A DNA stretch of 64,000 nucleotides from an uncultured Bacilli bacterium (GTDB lineage Bacteria; Bacillota_I; Bacilli_A; RF39; UBA660): the NCBI GenBank assembly GCA_934098455.1, contig CAKOOU010000001.1, positions 199,933 to 263,932 on the forward strand, in the 5' to 3' direction. The notes under the pieces are model-generated. The model was given only the letters and a program-made list of their open reading frames with translations, ran no database searches and had not been told where the DNA came from. Positions within the stretch are counted from its first letter, which is position 1. Every line of letters starts with the position of its first letter. The position numbers and the translations under genes are program-made. Below, one piece after another: positions 49,684-52,899 of this stretch.

Positions 49684-50484
49684 ATGAAAAAAATGACAGA
49701 AAAAGAAGCAAAACAATGTATGATTAATATATTATCTTATATCGATAATATATGTAGAAAAAATAAAATAAATTATAGTATATATTACGGTTCTCTTATT
49801 GGAGCAATAAGACATAAAGGTATTATTCCATGGGATGATGATATAGATATTATTCTATTAAAAGAGGATTATGACAAATTGATAAAAATATTAAAAACTC
49901 AAAACAACGAATATAAAATTCTTGATGAGACAACAGATACAAAATGTGTTTTGCCATTTGCAAAATTAGTAAATACTAAAACTTATATAGAACAAGATAA
50001 TATGAATAAAGATAATAATATGGGATTATTTGTAGATATATTTTGTTTTAATAATTTTCCTGACAAAGACAAAAAGTTATATTACAAAAAAATTATTTTT
50101 TATAAATTATTGATAGATGGTTTAAACTATAAAAATTTTAAAAAAGGAGAAGACTATTACTATTTAAAAAAGATAAGAAATATTATTGCGAAAATATTCG
50201 GAAAAAAATATTTGATGAAAAAATATATAAAATTATGTAATAAATACAATAATTGCAAAACGAATAGAGTTATTTCAAATTGGCCAGAATATTATAATCC
50301 ATTAGAAAAAGAAATTGTAAATAAAAGTGAATTTAAAAATTTTATAAGAGTAGACTTTGAAAATATAAAAGTAATGATAACAAAAGATTATGATGTATTA
50401 TTAAAAAGATATTTTGGTGATTATATGACTCCACCACCTAAAGAAAAAAGAATCAATCATGGATTTAATGCTTATTGGAGGTAG
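49684..50484 (+). CDS. licD: LicD-family phosphotransferase (phospho-alcohol transferase)
   Basis: '[23 protein letters not shown]' DXD-type LicD signature, and 'ggag' SD. Confidence 0.8.
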   Translation: [266 protein letters not shown]

Positions 50485-50485
50485 T

Positions 50486-51568
50486 ATGGAAAATAAAATA
50501 AATTTTACAGTTGGTCCAGTACAAATGGATGATGAAACAAGAAAAATTGGAATGAATCAAATACCTTATTTCAGAACAAGTGAGTTTTCTAATTTAATGT
50601 TAGAAAATGAAGAACTAATAAAAAAATTTTCTATAGCACCAGAAAACAGTAGAGCAGTATTTATGACTGGATCTGGAACAGCATCAATGGAAGCAACTGT
50701 ATTAAATTGCCTAACGAAAGATGATAAAGTGTTAGTTGTAAATGGTGGAAGTTTTGGTAAAAGATTTGTAGAATTACTAAAACTATATGAAATACCACAT
50801 GTTGAAATAAAATTAAATACAGGAGAACAATTAACTAGTGAAATCTTAGAAGATTATAATGATAAAAGTTTTACAGCATTCATGATAAATATACATGAAA
50901 CTTCTACAGGTGTTAGATATGATTTAGATTTAATTGGTAATTTTTGTAAAAAAAACAACCTATTATTAATAGTTGATTCTATAAGTTCATTTTTAGCAGA
51001 TGAAATAGATATGACTAAAAATAAAATTGATGTATTAATAATAGGCTCGCAAAAAGCGCTTGCATGTCCTCCAGGTATTTCAATAATTGTATTATCAGAA
51101 AGTGCAATTAATAAAATATATAAAAATGATGCAAAATGCTACTACTTAAATTTAAAAAGTGCATTAGAAAATCAAAAAAGAGGACAAACACCATTCACTC
51201 CAGCAGTAGGAATTTTAATTCAAATAAATAGTAGATTAAAATTAATTGACAAAAATGGCGGAGTAAAAAAAGAAATAGAAAAAACAAAACATTTAGCAGA
51301 ATATTTTAGAAGCAAAATAAATAATTTTCCATTTAAAATGGTAACAGATTTTCCATCAAATGCAGTCACATCTTTATATTCTCTAAATAATAGAGCTAAT
51401 GAGATATTTTTAACACTAAAAGATAATTATAATATATGGGTATGTCCTAATGGTGGAGAATTAAAAGATAAAATTTTTAGAGTAGGACACATAGGACACT
51501 TAACTGAAAAAGATTACGATGAATTAATTAATGCATTAGAAGATATGAATAAAAAAGGACTATTATAA
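50486..51568 (+). CDS. Class V (AGXT/SerC-like) PLP aminotransferase
   Basis: 'FTVGPVQM', 'GSGTASMEA' and 'IIGSQKALACPPG' (PLP lysine). The ATG lies 1 nt after the licD stop. Confidence 0.75.
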   Translation: MENKINFTVGPVQMDDETRKIGMNQIPYFRTSEFSNLMLENEELIKKFSIAPENSRAVFMTGSGTASMEATVLNCLTKDDKVLVVNGGSFGKRFVELLKLYEIPHVEIKLNTGEQLTSEILEDYNDKSFTAFMINIHETSTGVRYDLDLIGNFCKKNNLLLIVDSISSFLADEIDMTKNKIDVLIIGSQKALACPPGISIIVLSESAINKIYKNDAKCYYLNLKSALENQKRGQTPFTPAVGILIQINSRLKLIDKNGGVKKEIEKTKHLAEYFRSKINNFPFKMVTDFPSNAVTSLYSLNNRANEIFLTLKDNYNIWVCPNGGELKDKIFRVGHIGHLTEKDYDELINALEDMNKKGLL

Positions 51569-51585
51569 AAATTAAAGAGGTACAA

Positions 51586-52899
51586 ATGAAAAAAGTAATT
51601 ACATATGGAACATTCGATTTATTACATTACGGACACATAAAATTATTAGAACGAGCTAAAGCGTTAGGAGATTATTTAATAGTTGGTATAACTTCAGATG
51701 ATTATGATAAAACAAGAGGAAAAATAAATAATCAGCAATGTTTAGCGGAAAGAATACAAAATGTAAAAGAAACAGGATTAGCAGACTTAATAATAATTGA
51801 AGAATATGAAGGTCAAAAAATAGATGATATTAAAAGATATGATATAGATATATTTACTGTTGGCTCAGACTGGGAAGGATTCTTTGATTATTTAAAAGAA
51901 TATTGTGAAGTTGTATATTTACCTAGAACTAAGGGTGTTTCAAGTACACGATTAAGAAGTGAAAATAGAGAATTAAAAATGGGAATAGTAAGTGATTCAG
52001 CTAATTATATCTCAAAATTTCAAAAAGAAGATAAATATGTTAATGGAATAGAATTTATAGGAATATGTACTAATAATCTAGAAAATATGAGTAAAGAAAT
52101 AAAGTCATTACCAATTATTACCAATAATTATGATGAATTATTAAATAAGGTTGACGCACTTTTTATAAAGTCTGACTATGAAAAACGATATAACCTTATA
52201 AAAAAAGCATTAATAAAAGGTAAAAGTGTATTATGTGAATCACCTATCTCATTAAACAAAAAAGAATGCGAAGAATTATTTGAATTAGCTGAAAATAATG
52301 ATTGTGTTTTAGTAGAAGGAATAAGAACAGCATATTCAACTGCCTACGAAAGACTACAATTATTAATAAAATCTGGTAAAATTGGAAAAATACTAAATGT
52401 TTCTGCAACATGTACAAGTATGACAAAAGATTATAGAAAACATAATCATAGTTTATACGAATGGGGTTCCAATGCCTTATTACCTGTATTTCAAATACTA
52501 GGAACACAATATAAGAATAGAAATATAATTACATATGACTCAAATGGAGATGCATTTACTAAAATAGATTTTCTATATGATAATGCTTGTGCAACAATTA
52601 TAGTAGCAGAAGGAGCAAAATCTGAAGGAAGTCTAGTTATTACTGGAACTAAAGGATATATTTATGTACCAGCACCATGGTGGAAAACAGATTATTTTGA
52701 AGTAAGATATGAAAACACAAATGAAAATAAAAGATACTTTTACCAATTAGATGGTGAAGGTATAAGATATGAATTAGTTGAATTTGCAAGAGCAGTAAAA
52801 ACAAAAAAATCTGATATTTATATTTCTAAAAATATAAGTATGGAAATTTGTAAAATAATGGAAGATTTTAAAAATGATAAAGATATAAATAGAATATAA
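51586..52899 (+). CDS. Fusion: TagD-type cytidylyltransferase (N-terminus) + Gfo/Idh/MocA oxidoreductase (C-terminus)
   Basis: N-terminus: 'ITYGTFDLLHYGHIKLLERAK' (HxGH) and 'RTKGVSSTRLR' (RTxGISTT). C-terminal ~300 aa have the Gfo/Idh/MocA layout ('LKMGIVSDS', 'KSVLCESPISL'). Confidence 0.7.
   Translation: MKKVITYGTFDLLHYGHIKLLERAKALGDYLIVGITSDDYDKTRGKINNQQCLAERIQNVKETGLADLIIIEEYEGQKIDDIKRYDIDIFTVGSDWEGFFDYLKEYCEVVYLPRTKGVSSTRLRSENRELKMGIVSDSANYISKFQKEDKYVNGIEFIGICTNNLENMSKEIKSLPIITNNYDELLNKVDALFIKSDYEKRYNLIKKALIKGKSVLCESPISLNKKECEELFELAENNDCVLVEGIRTAYSTAYERLQLLIKSGKIGKILNVSATCTSMTKDYRKHNHSLYEWGSNALLPVFQILGTQYKNRNIITYDSNGDAFTKIDFLYDNACATIIVAEGAKSEGSLVITGTKGYIYVPAPWWKTDYFEVRYENTNENKRYFYQLDGEGIRYELVEFARAVKTKKSDIYISKNISMEICKIMEDFKNDKDINRI

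What the first reader, a model, noticed from the sequence alone, without database searches (positions are those of the whole stretch)
49684..52899. Cassette of LicD, a class V aminotransferase and a TagD-type cytidylyltransferase fused to a Gfo/Idh/MocA oxidoreductase: possible CDP-activated amino-polyol (serinol-phosphate-like) decoration
Seen in sequence: three tightly packed genes. LicD carries '[21 protein letters not shown]'. The AGXT/SerC-like PLP enzyme carries 'GSQKALACPPG'. The third is a fusion of a glycerol-3-phosphate-cytidylyltransferase-type domain ('GTFDLLHYGH', 'RTKGVSSTRLR') with a Gfo/Idh/MocA dehydrogenase.

Established knowledge:
- LicD-family enzymes transfer phospho-alcohols from CDP-activated donors (choline, ribitol-P, glycerol-P).
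- Gfo/Idh/MocA dehydrogenase plus aminotransferase pairs classically convert a secondary alcohol into an amine through a keto intermediate.
- Fused cytidylyltransferase-reductase enzymes exist (Bcs1 for CDP-ribitol).

Inference: the cassette could make a CDP-linked 2-amino-2-deoxy polyol, for example CDP-serinol from CDP-glycerol or from DHAP. It could then install a zwitterionic phospho-amino-alcohol on the polymer, analogous in function to phosphocholine, phosphoethanolamine or D-alanylation. I know of no characterised enzyme with this domain fusion.
Basis: partly seen in the sequence, partly recalled or inferred. Interest (0 to 1): 0.65.

Follow-up and report, generated by a model that had tools for sequence, protein, structure and literature searches.

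The report
Amino-alcohol phosphate decoration cassette for wall polysaccharide
Three tightly packed genes in a gut bacterium's cell-wall sugar locus form a widespread, uncharacterised module that most likely makes a CDP-activated amino-alcohol phosphate (probably serinol phosphate) and attaches it to the surface polymer, while its "dehydrogenase" domain has lost the family's catalytic residues.

Summary
LicD (49684-50484), a class V PLP aminotransferase (true start 50486, to 51568) and a TagD-like cytidylyltransferase fused to a Gfo/Idh/MocA-fold domain (51586-52899) sit in one operon of a wall-polysaccharide locus.

The aminotransferase plus fusion pair is a highly conserved, horizontally spread module. 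It occurs in Clostridia, Bacilli, Bacteroidales, Fibrobacter, Elusimicrobia, Saccharibacteria and Methanobrevibacter, usually with LicD. In some lineages a LicC-like cytidylyltransferase replaces the fusion, and a GNAT acetyltransferase often sits alongside. PEP mutase is absent in 79 of 80 loci.

The Gfo-like domain of this clade lacks the catalytic EKP lysine, the Tyr/His position and the glycine-rich motif. Relatives that usually have no aminotransferase keep all three.

Best reading: the aminotransferase converts DHAP to serinol phosphate, the TagD-like domain makes CDP-serinol, and LicD installs phosphoserinol. The Gfo-like domain does no redox chemistry.

Its oxidation step by the Gfo domain is not. 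No product has been shown. No characterised member was found, so this is a new variant of the CDP-alcohol/LicD decoration pathways.

The parts
49684..50484 (+). LicD-family phosphotransferase (266 aa). Predicted to transfer the phospho-alcohol from the CDP donor to the polysaccharide.
   Evidence: PF04991, E 3.9e-43, covering profile positions 1-227 of 227. Closest NCBIfam model is the Mf1 cholinephosphotransferase, below its cutoff. AGGAG ribosome-binding site before ATG 49684. A LicD gene lies within 6 kb of the aminotransferase in 50 of 80 related loci, often in two copies.
50486..51568 (+). Class V (AGXT/PhnW-like) PLP-dependent aminotransferase, 360 aa. Predicted DHAP aminotransferase making serinol phosphate.
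   Evidence: PF00266, E 4e-23. Best NCBIfam models are PhnW-AepZ (165.7 bits against a cutoff of 360.8) and BhcA, all below cutoff. PDB 3f0h, E 1.8e-132, function unknown. K190, D164 and R332 are invariant in the family. Orthologs at 57-97% identity in 80 genomes from many phyla.
51586..51963 (+). TagD-like cytidylyltransferase domain (residues 1-126 of the 437-aa fusion). Predicted to make the CDP-amino-alcohol.
   Evidence: PF01467, E 1.8e-19. TIGR01518 at 121.3 bits, below its cutoff of 165.4. PDB 2b7l and 1coz at about 1e-37, 52% identity to B. subtilis TagD. HxGH (H14, H17), R44-G45-K46 and RTKGVSS motifs present. Belongs to a subfamily found only with Gfo-like domains. This is the best-conserved part of the fusion, with mean majority-residue frequency 0.84.
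51973..52899 (+). Gfo/Idh/MocA-fold domain (residues 130-437) lacking that family's catalytic residues. Probably a non-redox scaffold or binding domain.
   Evidence: PF01408, E 2.3e-12. AlphaFold model with pLDDT 84.9. Foldseek top hits 3e9m, 4had, 3evn, 2o48 and KijD10, with target-normalised TM-score about 0.8. The motif reads 'CESP' where the family has 'CEKP'. 'GIVSDSANY' stands in place of 'GIIGTGRIA', and 'NHSLYEWGSN' in place of 'GGSFTELGSY'. The C-terminal motif 'GTKGYIYVPAPWWKT' is nearly invariant.

Best explanation
The three genes form a self-contained module that decorates the cell-wall polysaccharide with an amino-alcohol phosphate, most likely serinol phosphate (2-amino-1,3-propanediol 1-phosphate).

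1. Inferred: the class V PLP aminotransferase transaminates the glycolytic ketone dihydroxyacetone phosphate (DHAP) to serinol phosphate.
2. Inferred: the TagD-like N-terminal domain of the fusion condenses serinol phosphate with CTP to give CDP-serinol. Serinol phosphate is glycerol-3-phosphate with NH3+ in place of the 2-OH.
3. Inferred from the family's known chemistry: LicD transfers phosphoserinol from CDP-serinol to a sugar hydroxyl of the polymer, giving a zwitterionic phosphodiester substituent.
4. The Gfo/Idh/MocA-fold domain is a relic of an ancestral bifunctional enzyme that reduced the keto-phosphate and then cytidylylated it. In the aminotransferase-linked clade it has lost the family's catalytic residues and does no redox chemistry. 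It is probably kept for structure or oligomerisation.

Shown here: the domain identities, the conserved gene association, the loss of the catalytic motifs and the absence of phosphonate genes. The substrates and the product are inferred.
For: 1. The aminotransferase followed by TagD-Gfo is a conserved, horizontally spread pair. Among 80 genomes from Clostridia, Bacilli, Bacteroidales, Fibrobacter, Elusimicrobia, Lentisphaeria, Saccharibacteria and Methanobrevibacter, the only recurrent neighbour families are the aminotransferase (77 loci), the fusion (69) and LicD (50 loci, 73 copies). No kinase is among them, and PEP mutase turns up in one locus only. The precursor must therefore come straight from central metabolism.
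2. The aminotransferase keeps the PLP lysine, the aspartate and the anion-binding arginine as invariant residues.
3. In L009, L019, L020, L031 and Fusobacterium vincentii, the same aminotransferase is coupled instead to a LicC-like nucleotidyltransferase. Its best PDB match is pneumococcal CTP:phosphocholine cytidylyltransferase (5.5e-14), followed by the AEP-activating PntC. F. nucleatum polymorphum has licC and licD but no choline kinase or transporter, and it has a 'serine-pyruvate aminotransferase' (PMC1924603). Serinol phosphate is the one simple compound that is a transamination product of a central keto-phosphate and also resembles both glycerol-3-phosphate and phosphocholine or phosphoethanolamine.
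4. Loss of the catalytic residues tracks the aminotransferase. No lysine was found at the EKP position in any of 69 aminotransferase-anchored fusions (S 50, T 7, P 6, A 4, L 1, one not located). In contrast, 120 of 120 relatives of P0306 keep EKP, GxGxGR and the E/Y pair. Of 7 sampled EKP-type fusions, 4 sit beside LicD genes and no class V aminotransferase, 2 have neither, and only 1 has a class V aminotransferase. This suggests amination replaces reduction of the same carbonyl.
5. The wider Gfo-like family is fused or adjacent to glycerophosphodiesterase (GDPD), TagD-like and LicD domains. That ties it to C3 glycerol-phosphate chemistry.
6. GNAT N-acetyltransferases lie directly upstream of the aminotransferase in 6 loci from 5 phyla, and inside the module in R. 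albus 7. One relative has a LicD-methyltransferase fusion. Both are expected if the product carries a free amine.
7. DHAP to serinol phosphate is established chemistry: RtxA (PMC3222319), (S)-serinol phosphate as a substrate in C. jejuni capsule synthesis (PMC11800397), and a side activity of the class V enzyme PSAT1 (PMC9283133).
Against: - No product, substrate or cofactor has been measured. Everything about the chemistry is inferred from comparative genomics.
- I found no report of phosphoserinol in any wall polymer.
- The cytidylyltransferase domains of aminotransferase-linked fusions and those without one belong to the same subfamily and show no obvious switch in substrate-pocket residues. 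One would not necessarily expect that if one form takes glycerol-P and the other serinol-P. It fits equally well a model where the cytidylyltransferase always acts on DHAP and the aminotransferase acts on CDP-dihydroxyacetone.
- P0474-type loci pair an orthologous aminotransferase (55% identity) with a catalytically intact Gfo domain, so a redox step may belong to the pathway in some lineages.
- The Gfo-like domain of the window clade is still under selection (C-terminal core 0.80 conserved), so it may have an unknown catalytic role.
- The 80 loci were picked by similarity to the window's aminotransferase, which biases the correlation.
- The known dedicated DHAP aminotransferases could not be compared by sequence.
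Confidence: 0.45

Rival explanations
1. The TagD-like domain makes CDP-glycerol from glycerol-3-phosphate. The fused Gfo/Idh/MocA domain oxidises C2 with NAD(P)+ to CDP-dihydroxyacetone. The aminotransferase converts that to CDP-serinol, and LicD transfers phosphoserinol. The product is the same but the order and substrates differ.
For: Dehydrogenase-aminotransferase pairs acting on nucleotide-linked substrates are classical (established knowledge). The fusion places the cytidylyltransferase and the Gfo-fold domain on one chain. Some relatives (P0474, loci L087 and L088) have an intact EKP/GxGxGR/E-Y Gfo domain next to an orthologous aminotransferase. The cytidylyltransferase subfamily is the same with or without an aminotransferase. 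Acting on a CDP-linked open-chain ketose has precedent in HS5.17 and Mnp2 (PMC10918830).
Against: In the window the catalytic lysine is Ser219, the Tyr/His position is Asn296 and the glycine-rich motif reads 'GIVSDSANY'. None of the 69 aminotransferase-anchored fusions has a lysine at the EKP position. The Rossmann half is the least conserved part of the protein, at 0.53. The LicC-like variant has no Gfo domain at all. If oxidation were obligatory, those modules would be dead, yet the aminotransferase and the cytidylyltransferase remain under strong conservation.
Confidence: 0.12
2. The donor carries no amine. The fusion makes CDP-glycerol, or an isomer such as CDP-2-glycerol or CDP-sn-1-glycerol, and LicD installs glycerol phosphate. 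The aminotransferase-like protein does something else, such as a non-transaminase reaction, or makes an unrelated amino compound.
For: The cytidylyltransferase domain is 52% identical to TagD. TagF-like CDP-glycerol glycerophosphotransferases neighbour the module in about 25 of 80 loci. EKP-type fusions work with LicD and no aminotransferase. Pneumococcal serotypes 15 and 23 install glycerol-2-phosphate with WchX (LicD-type) plus gtp1-3 (PMC1391919).
Against: This does not explain why the aminotransferase is almost always coupled to a cytidylyltransferase of either fold, including the two-gene unit standing alone in L020. It also does not explain the recurring GNAT or why the reductase residues are lost exactly where the aminotransferase is present. 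The aminotransferase's active-site residues are intact. Published annotation calls gtp2 a 'nucleotidyl transferase' and gtp3 a 'phosphotransferase', which suggests different folds. Homology could not be tested.
Confidence: 0.12
3. A different amine is made and CDP-activated. One option is phosphoethanolamine, for example if the PLP enzyme decarboxylates phosphoserine. Another is a larger 2-amino-alditol phosphate made from a C4-C6 ketose phosphate such as fructose-6-phosphate or ribulose-5-phosphate.
For: The TagD family includes ethanolamine-phosphate cytidylyltransferase (3elb, E 1.9e-11). LicC-like enzymes take beta-ammonium phosphates. Pathways that cytidylylate a ketose phosphate and then modify it exist for C5 and C6 substrates (PMC10918830). 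Sequence alone does not fix the aminotransferase's substrate.
Against: The closest characterised relatives of the PLP enzyme are all transaminases: AGXT, serine-pyruvate aminotransferase, PhnW, BhcA and PSAT. The fusions of the Gfo-like family to GDPD point to glycerol-phosphate-sized substrates. The cytidylyltransferase is closest to the glycerol-3-phosphate enzyme, not to sugar-phosphate nucleotidyltransferases.
Confidence: 0.15
4. A phosphonate decoration. The aminotransferase is a 2-aminoethylphosphonate (AEP) transaminase, the TagD-like domain makes CMP-AEP and LicD installs AEP, as in the Pnt pathway.
For: The best NCBIfam hits of the aminotransferase are PhnW-AepZ models (1.8e-48). PF01467-type cytidylyltransferases activate phosphonates in Fom1, and 23.6% of PEP mutases are fused to such a domain. 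LicD-like genes occur in Pnt clusters (PMC6697681). L038 has PepM and Ppd 0.4 kb downstream of the module.
Against: Scores are far below the PhnW cutoffs (165.7 against 360.8; 128.4 against 400.8) and similar to the BhcA and AGXT scores. The PEP-mutase signature EDKxxxxxNS is absent from the 64-kb window and from 79 of 80 related loci, although Ppm genes normally cluster with their tailoring genes. L038 carries its own PntC-like nucleotidyltransferase and an ADH-like gene, so it looks like a separate module.
Confidence: 0.05

Closest known systems
lic pathway (LicA/LicC/LicD) for phosphocholine decoration of teichoic acids and LPS
   Same: The logic is the same: a phospho-amino-alcohol is activated with CTP, and a LicD-family enzyme transfers it to a glycan. 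The window's LicD is a true PF04991 member. In some lineages the aminotransferase's partner is a LicC homolog.
   Different: There is no choline transporter or kinase. The phospho-amine is predicted to be made de novo by a transaminase. In the window the cytidylyltransferase has the TagD (PF01467) fold, not the LicC fold, and carries an extra Gfo-fold domain.
Pnt pathway for 2-aminoethylphosphonate decoration (Ppm, Ppd, AEP transaminase, PntC, LicD-like; Rice et al. 2019, PMC6697681)
   Same: A class V transaminase makes the amine, a cytidylyltransferase activates it and a LicD-like enzyme is thought to install it. A fused transaminase-cytidylyltransferase exists (6pd1), and the window's aminotransferase matches it at 2.3e-23.
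   Different: No PEP mutase or phosphonopyruvate decarboxylase is present. The aminotransferase scores below the PhnW cutoffs. The product is predicted to be a phosphate ester, not a phosphonate.
Bifunctional or paired reductase-cytidylyltransferase systems for CDP-alditols: TarI/TarJ and Bcs1 (CDP-ribitol), and HS5.18/HS5.17 and Mnp1/Mnp2 (CDP-6-glucitol, CDP-mannitol; PMC10918830)
   Same: A keto-phosphate from central metabolism is converted at its carbonyl and activated with CTP to give a CDP-alcohol donor for wall or capsule polymers. The EKP-type TagD-Gfo relatives probably work this way.
   Different: The folds differ: IspD or NTP-transferase plus SDR or MDR in those systems, against TagD plus Gfo/Idh/MocA here. 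In the window the reductase domain is catalytically degenerate, and a transaminase is predicted to act on the carbonyl instead.
DHAP aminotransferases that make serinol phosphate: RtxA N-terminal domain (rhizobitoxine) and C. jejuni Cj1437 (capsule glucuronamide)
   Same: This is the first step predicted here, DHAP plus an amino acid giving serinol phosphate. In C. jejuni the product ends up on a surface polysaccharide.
   Different: In those systems serinol phosphate is dephosphorylated or amide-linked, not CDP-activated. Homology with the window's enzyme was not tested because no sequences were available. From memory, Cj1437 is a class I/II (HisC-like) enzyme. A HisC-like aminotransferase does appear in one EKP-type locus, L086.
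Pneumococcal gtp1-gtp2-gtp3 plus wchX (CDP-2-glycerol, glycerol-2-phosphate on serotype 15 and 23 capsules)
   Same: A small cassette of a dehydrogenase, a nucleotidyltransferase and a third enzyme next to a LicD-type transferase, installing a C3 phospho-alcohol (PMC1391919, PMC5581491, PMC3493582).
   Different: The product has no amine. The annotation ('nucleotidyl transferase', 'phosphotransferase') suggests other folds. My initial recollection that Gtp3 resembles an aminotransferase could not be verified and is probably wrong.

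Membership tests
LicD family (PF04991) | Full-length match to the LicD profile above the gathering score, including the conserved acidic DxD-type motif | tested here: met
   148.6 bits against a cutoff of 22.6, profile positions 1-227 of 227. 'PWDDDIDI' is present.
Class V aminotransferases (PF00266, AGXT/SPT/PhnW group) | Profile match plus the Schiff-base lysine (SQK motif), the PLP-binding aspartate and the C-terminal substrate arginine | tested here: met
   82.4 bits against a cutoff of 21.5. K190, D164 and R332 are invariant in 13 diverse homologs. About 65% identical to PDB 3f0h.
2-aminoethylphosphonate transaminase (PhnW/AepZ equivalogs) and the Pnt pathway | Score above the equivalog cutoff | tested here: not met
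   TIGR03301 165.7 against 360.8, TIGR02326 128.4 against 400.8, NF010006 131.3 against 296.
2-aminoethylphosphonate transaminase (PhnW/AepZ equivalogs) and the Pnt pathway | PEP mutase with the EDKxxxxxNS motif, and phosphonopyruvate decarboxylase, in the neighbourhood | tested here: not met
   No motif in any frame of the 64-kb window. Only 1 of 80 related loci (L038) has it. No such Pfam hit among the annotated window ORFs.
Glycerol-3-phosphate cytidylyltransferase TagD/TarD (TIGR01518 equivalog) | HxGH and RTxGISTT nucleotide-binding motifs and the TagD fold | tested here: met
   H14-Y-G-H17 and R114-TKGVSS are present. 52% identity to 1coz over 131 positions.
Glycerol-3-phosphate cytidylyltransferase TagD/TarD (TIGR01518 equivalog) | Score above the equivalog cutoff, which implies glycerol-3-phosphate specificity | tested here: not met
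   121.3 bits against a cutoff of 165.4. The domain belongs to a distinct subfamily ('RGK[IL]N', 'GQKIxDI', 'GSDW') found only with Gfo-like domains.
Gfo/Idh/MocA oxidoreductases | Two-domain fold: N-terminal Rossmann domain plus C-terminal alpha/beta domain | tested here: met
   PF01408 48.1 bits against a cutoff of 24. AlphaFold model pLDDT 84.9. Foldseek to 3e9m, 4had, 3evn and 2o48 at E 1e-20 to 2e-23, target-normalised TM-score 0.76-0.84.
Gfo/Idh/MocA oxidoreductases | Catalytic EKP lysine and the downstream Asp/Glu-x3-His/Tyr pair | tested here: not met
   The window has E218-S219-P220 and N296 at the Tyr/His position. The family consensus is S/T/P/A and T. EKP-type relatives have 'HVLCEKP' and 'GGSFTELGSY'.
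Gfo/Idh/MocA oxidoreductases | Glycine-rich dinucleotide-binding motif (GxGxxG/A) | tested here: inconclusive
   The window has 'GIVSDSANY' and the clade consensus is 'G[LI]VG[ED]S', against 'GIIGTGRIA' in relatives. Cofactor binding itself cannot be judged from sequence.
Pneumococcal CDP-2-glycerol pathway (Gtp1/Gtp2/Gtp3 + WchX) | Sequence homology of the three pathway enzymes to Gtp1-3 | not testable with these tools
   No pneumococcal sequences could be retrieved, and Wang 2010 and van Selm 2003 are not held. Only the annotation names are available. No named hit appeared among 3 x 120 listed homologs.
Bcs1 / TarI-TarJ CDP-ribitol synthases | IspD-type cytidylyltransferase plus SDR or MDR reductase | tested here: not met
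   Pfam finds only PF01467 and PF01408 in the fusion. The resemblance is in function, not fold.

The most novel reading that the evidence does not exclude
A previously unrecognised and very widespread surface modification: phosphoserinol (optionally N-acetylated or N-methylated), installed from CDP-serinol by LicD enzymes on wall polysaccharides, capsules and LPS. Carriers would include gut and oral Clostridia, Bacilli, Bacteroidales, Fusobacterium, Fibrobacter and even Methanobrevibacter. The pathway would have arisen when a transaminase took over the carbonyl-processing step of a bifunctional reductase-cytidylyltransferase, leaving a conserved pseudo-dehydrogenase domain.
Probability: 0.4. 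Interest if true: 0.78.

Novelty: new variant of a known kind. Interest (0 to 1): 0.62.

Why it matters
Zwitterionic substituents such as phosphocholine, phosphoethanolamine, AEP and D-alanine on bacterial surface glycans control charge, autolysin and phage binding, resistance to cationic peptides and recognition by the host immune system.

This module is present in thousands of database proteins from dominant gut, rumen and oral taxa: Lachnospiraceae, Ruminococcus, Faecalibacterium, Prevotella, Bacteroides and Fusobacterium. If it installs an amino-alcohol phosphate made directly from DHAP, it would add a new and common member to that set. It would also give a function to a structural-genomics protein (3f0h), and would explain why some fusobacteria have licC and licD without any choline-uptake genes.

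The module is also a clear case of a catalytic domain decaying into a pseudoenzyme once a neighbouring gene takes over its step. The hypothesis can be tested directly in cultured strains.

Tried and rejected
1. I first suspected the cassette was the pneumococcal gtp1-3/wchX CDP-2-glycerol pathway with gtp1 and gtp2 fused, recalling Gtp3 as aminotransferase-like. The primary papers are not held. Annotation names (gtp2 'nucleotidyl transferase', gtp3 'phosphotransferase') argue against shared folds. No named pneumococcal protein appeared in any homolog list or cluster look-up. I dropped it as a membership claim and kept it only as an analogue.
2. The phosphonate (AEP) reading, prompted by the PhnW-type profile hits, was rejected. 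PEP mutase is absent from the window and from 79 of 80 loci.
3. I spent the last homolog search on a standalone EKP-type Gfo protein hoping to reach Gtp1. It did not, but it uncovered the large EKP-type fusion clade.
4. I looked for substrate-specificity switches in the cytidylyltransferase domain between forms with and without an aminotransferase. Apart from 'EEYEGQK' against 'EDHxGQK', there is no clear difference.
5. The S. pyogenes qim operon preprint turned out to concern GlcNAc-ribitol and is unrelated.
6. Literature searches for serinol with cytidylyltransferase, teichoic acid or LicD, and for MocA with cytidylyltransferase and LicD, found no characterisation of this module.
7. Promoter-like sites are no more frequent than in shuffled sequence (133 against 129.6), so they were not used.

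Full report
**Observation.** The window has about 22% G+C. Its closest public relative is a gut MAG labelled 'uncultured Bacilli bacterium' (L001, 96-99% protein identity over the cassette). From about 20 kb to 58 kb the + strand carries a large cell-wall polysaccharide locus. It includes an MraY-type initiating transferase, an ABC-2 exporter, many glycosyltransferases, dTDP-sugar genes, a flippase-like gene and a UDP-GlcNAc 2-epimerase.

The three reported genes are real.
- LicD, 49684-50484: PF04991, E 3.9e-43.
- A class V aminotransferase: PF00266, E 4e-23.
- A 437-aa fusion, 51586-52899: a TagD-like cytidylyltransferase (PF01467; 52% identical to B. subtilis TagD) joined to a Gfo/Idh/MocA-fold domain (PF01408).

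The aminotransferase most likely starts at ATG 50486, not 50459. A GGAGG site lies inside the end of licD, the start is one base after the licD stop, and the product is 360 aa like its homologs. The next terminator-like site is near 58180, so the cassette sits inside a long operon.

**How common it is.** The fusion is not rare. More than 8000 database proteins match it, and the best 120 all share the two-domain architecture at 62-98% identity. The aminotransferase is equally conserved. It has a solved ortholog of unknown function, PDB 3f0h (E 1.8e-132).

A scan of one genome per species found at least 587 relatives of the aminotransferase. The best 80 (57-97% identity) come from Clostridia, Bacilli, Erysipelotrichales, Bacteroidales/Prevotella, Fibrobacter, Elusimicrobia, Lentisphaeria, Saccharibacteria and Methanobrevibacter. 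That spread points to horizontal transfer under strong constraint.

In about 65 of these loci the aminotransferase is followed immediately by the TagD-Gfo fusion. In Fibrobacter the order is reversed. Clustering all ORFs of the 80 loci gave only three recurrent families: the aminotransferase (77 loci), the fusion (69) and LicD (50 loci, 73 copies). LicD is divergent, at 23-41% identity. Nothing else is conserved, in particular no kinase or phosphatase. Whatever is activated must therefore derive directly from central metabolism.

**The Gfo-like domain is not a normal dehydrogenase.** The AlphaFold model (pLDDT 84.9) matches Gfo/Idh/MocA structures: 3e9m, 4had, 3evn, dihydrodiol dehydrogenase 2o48 and KijD10, with target-normalised TM-scores of about 0.8. 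The family's catalytic signature is missing.
- The EKP lysine is Ser219 in the window. Across 69 aminotransferase-anchored fusions it is S (50), T (7), P (6), A (4), L (1) or not located (1), and never K.
- The Asp/Glu-x3-Tyr/His pair is not conserved (window N296).
- The glycine-rich motif reads 'GIVSDSANY'.

A library-wide search with this domain found 4659 representative relatives. Most of those inspected keep 'GIIGTGRIA', 'HVLCEKP' and 'GGSFTELGSY'. All 120 listed relatives of the standalone protein P0306 have the lysine.

Within the window's clade the cytidylyltransferase domain is the best-conserved part (0.84) and the Rossmann half the worst (0.53). A C-terminal core, 'GTKGYIYVPAPWWKTDYFE', stays nearly invariant (0.80) and is shared with the EKP-type proteins. 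The window and L001 carry two further departures from their own clade, G136S and H214S.

**Context of the wider family.** EKP-type Gfo-like domains occur standalone, as TagD-Gfo fusions, and fused to GDPD glycerophosphodiesterase, Metallophos and LicD domains. Locus L081 shows a TagD-like gene, an EKP-type Gfo, a GDPD/Metallophos protein and LicD in a row. This ties the family to glycerol-phosphate-type C3 chemistry.

I sampled seven EKP-type TagD-Gfo fusions.
- Four lie beside LicD genes with no class V aminotransferase: P0438, P0485 and P0467 have none at all, and P0422 has two LicD genes, a GNAT and a HisC-like class I/II aminotransferase.
- Two have neither LicD nor an aminotransferase nearby (P0530, P0452).
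- One (P0474) is followed by an aminotransferase 55% identical to the window's, plus three LicD genes, one of them fused to a SAM methyltransferase.

So an intact reductase domain usually goes without an aminotransferase, and in the clade closest to the window the aminotransferase goes with a reductase domain that lacks those catalytic residues. The simplest reading is that EKP-type fusions reduce a keto-phosphate and cytidylylate it. Bcs1, TarIJ and the C. jejuni and pneumococcal CDP-alditol pairs do the same with other folds (PMC10918830). In the window's clade, transamination has replaced reduction of the same carbonyl.

**Evidence that the product is a phospho-amine.**
1. The aminotransferase keeps K190, D164 and R332.
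2. In L009, L019, L020, L031 and Fusobacterium vincentii, the same aminotransferase overlaps the start of a LicC-like nucleotidyltransferase instead of TagD-Gfo. That enzyme's best solved relative is pneumococcal CTP:phosphocholine cytidylyltransferase (5.5e-14), followed by the AEP-specific PntC. In L020 these two genes stand alone. The F. nucleatum polymorphum genome paper noted licC and licD without the rest of the lic operon, and a 'serine-pyruvate aminotransferase' shared with subspecies vincentii (PMC1924603). An aminotransferase supplying the LicC substrate would explain that.
3. A GNAT acetyltransferase sits directly upstream of the aminotransferase, on the same strand, in six loci from five phyla. 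It also sits inside the module in Ruminococcus albus 7, as LicD-aminotransferase-TagD/Gfo-LicD-GNAT-LicD.
4. The phosphonate alternative fails. The Ppm signature EDKxxxxxNS (PMC6697681) is absent from the window and present in only one of 80 loci. That locus, L038, carries its own PntC-like gene. The aminotransferase also scores far below the PhnW cutoffs.

**Most likely mechanism.** DHAP is the obvious central keto-phosphate. Its transamination product, serinol phosphate, is glycerol-3-phosphate with an amine at C2, which fits a TagD-like pocket. It is also a hydroxymethyl-substituted phosphoethanolamine, which fits a LicC-like pocket. DHAP to serinol phosphate is known chemistry: RtxA, the C. 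jejuni capsule pathway, and a side reaction of the class V enzyme PSAT1.

I therefore propose four steps.
1. The aminotransferase converts DHAP to serinol phosphate.
2. The TagD-like domain makes CDP-serinol.
3. LicD transfers phosphoserinol to the polymer.
4. The Gfo-like domain is a redox-inactive remnant.

All chemical steps are inferred. The gene association, the motif loss and the absence of rival pathway genes are shown.

**Caveats.** The cytidylyltransferase subfamily is the same whether or not an aminotransferase is present. That also fits a route in which the cytidylyltransferase acts on DHAP and the aminotransferase acts on CDP-dihydroxyacetone. It is unlikely in this window. The 80 loci were chosen by similarity to the window's aminotransferase, which biases the correlation. 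Other amines (phosphoethanolamine, larger amino-alditols) are not excluded. No report of phosphoserinol on a wall polymer was found in the held literature.

**Comparison with known systems and verdict.** The cassette works like the lic (phosphocholine) and Pnt (AEP) decoration pathways and like the CDP-alditol synthases. It is not a member of any of them: PhnW, TagD-equivalog and Gfo catalytic-motif tests were not met. LicD, class V aminotransferase, TagD-fold and Gfo-fold memberships were met. Homology to the pneumococcal Gtp enzymes could not be tested.

I rate it a new variant of a known kind. It is widespread, uncharacterised and testable in cultured strains: R. albus 7, F. nucleatum polymorphum or F. 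vincentii, A. rectalis, P. pallens, L. muris and E. ramulus.

Noticed in passing
L009:5998-7793; L020:5998-7826; L096 (Fusobacterium vincentii):8171-10802; also L019 and L031: A variant module in which the same aminotransferase overlaps the start of a LicC-like (NTP_transf_3) nucleotidyltransferase instead of TagD-Gfo. In Fusobacterium it lies between LicD and a Metallophos-like ORF, next to an O-antigen-ligase-like gene. In L020 (a Bacteroides MAG) the two genes stand alone among glycoside hydrolase genes.
   Followed up: partly
L006, L007, L017, L023, L039, L055 (800-880 bases upstream of the aminotransferase); L095 (R. albus 7):12254-13051: A GNAT N-acetyltransferase recurs directly upstream of the aminotransferase, or between two LicD genes. 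This suggests the product's amine is N-acetylated in some lineages.
   Followed up: partly
L087:9522-11357 (and L088): A 611-aa LicD fused to a SAM-dependent methyltransferase, in a locus with an EKP-type TagD-Gfo, the orthologous aminotransferase and two more LicD genes. It may N-methylate the installed amine, giving a choline-like head group.
   Followed up: no
L081:6292-10796; proteins P0278, P0281, P0275, P0276, P0297, P0353: A second module type. A TagD-like cytidylyltransferase and a catalytically intact (EKP) Gfo-like domain are combined with GDPD glycerophosphodiesterase, Metallophos and LicD, often fused into proteins of 600-1240 aa, with no aminotransferase. Function unknown; possibly scavenging glycerophosphodiesters for a CDP-glycerol-type donor.
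   Followed up: partly
L038:9745-13070: The only locus of 80 with a PEP-mutase-signature ORF. It is followed by a TPP-motif (Ppd-like) ORF, a PntC-like nucleotidyltransferase and an ADH-like ORF, right after the aminotransferase/TagD-Gfo/LicD module. It looks like a separate phosphonate module placed next door.
   Followed up: partly
window:51991-51993 and 52225-52227 (residues S136 and S214 of the fusion): The window and L001 differ from their own clade at two nearly invariant positions of the Gfo-like domain: G136 (96% G) is Ser, and H214 (94% H) is Ser. This suggests further decay of the dinucleotide-binding site in this lineage.
   Followed up: no
window:37128-42118: ATP-grasp (PylC-like), HAD hydrolase, FdtA-type isomerase, DegT aminotransferase, RmlA and RmlB in a row. 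This looks like a pathway for a dTDP-3-amino-3,6-dideoxyhexose, possibly N-acylated by the ATP-grasp ligase.
   Followed up: no
window:58756-62007: A 1083-aa protein combining an O-antigen-ligase-like membrane domain, a GT4 glycosyltransferase and a WecG/TagA domain. This is an unusual three-part fusion.
   Followed up: no
window:47505-49667, 52915-53628, 53630-53986: A 720-aa polytopic membrane protein with no Pfam hit lies immediately upstream of licD. A GtrB-like GT2 and a DUF2304 small membrane protein lie immediately downstream. Together they resemble a three-component extracytoplasmic glycosylation system flanking the cassette.
   Followed up: no
window:12557-19794: A CHAP-domain protein, a LysM protein and a 1506-aa FtsK/SpoIIIE-family ATPase lie upstream of the polysaccharide locus. 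They may belong to a secretion or DNA-transfer system.
   Followed up: no
L053:7080-8275 (Methanobrevibacter sp. UBA586): An archaeal copy of the module, with the aminotransferase at 61% identity. The TagD part ends after 116 aa, before the Gfo part resumes, so there is either a frameshift or a split gene.
   Followed up: no
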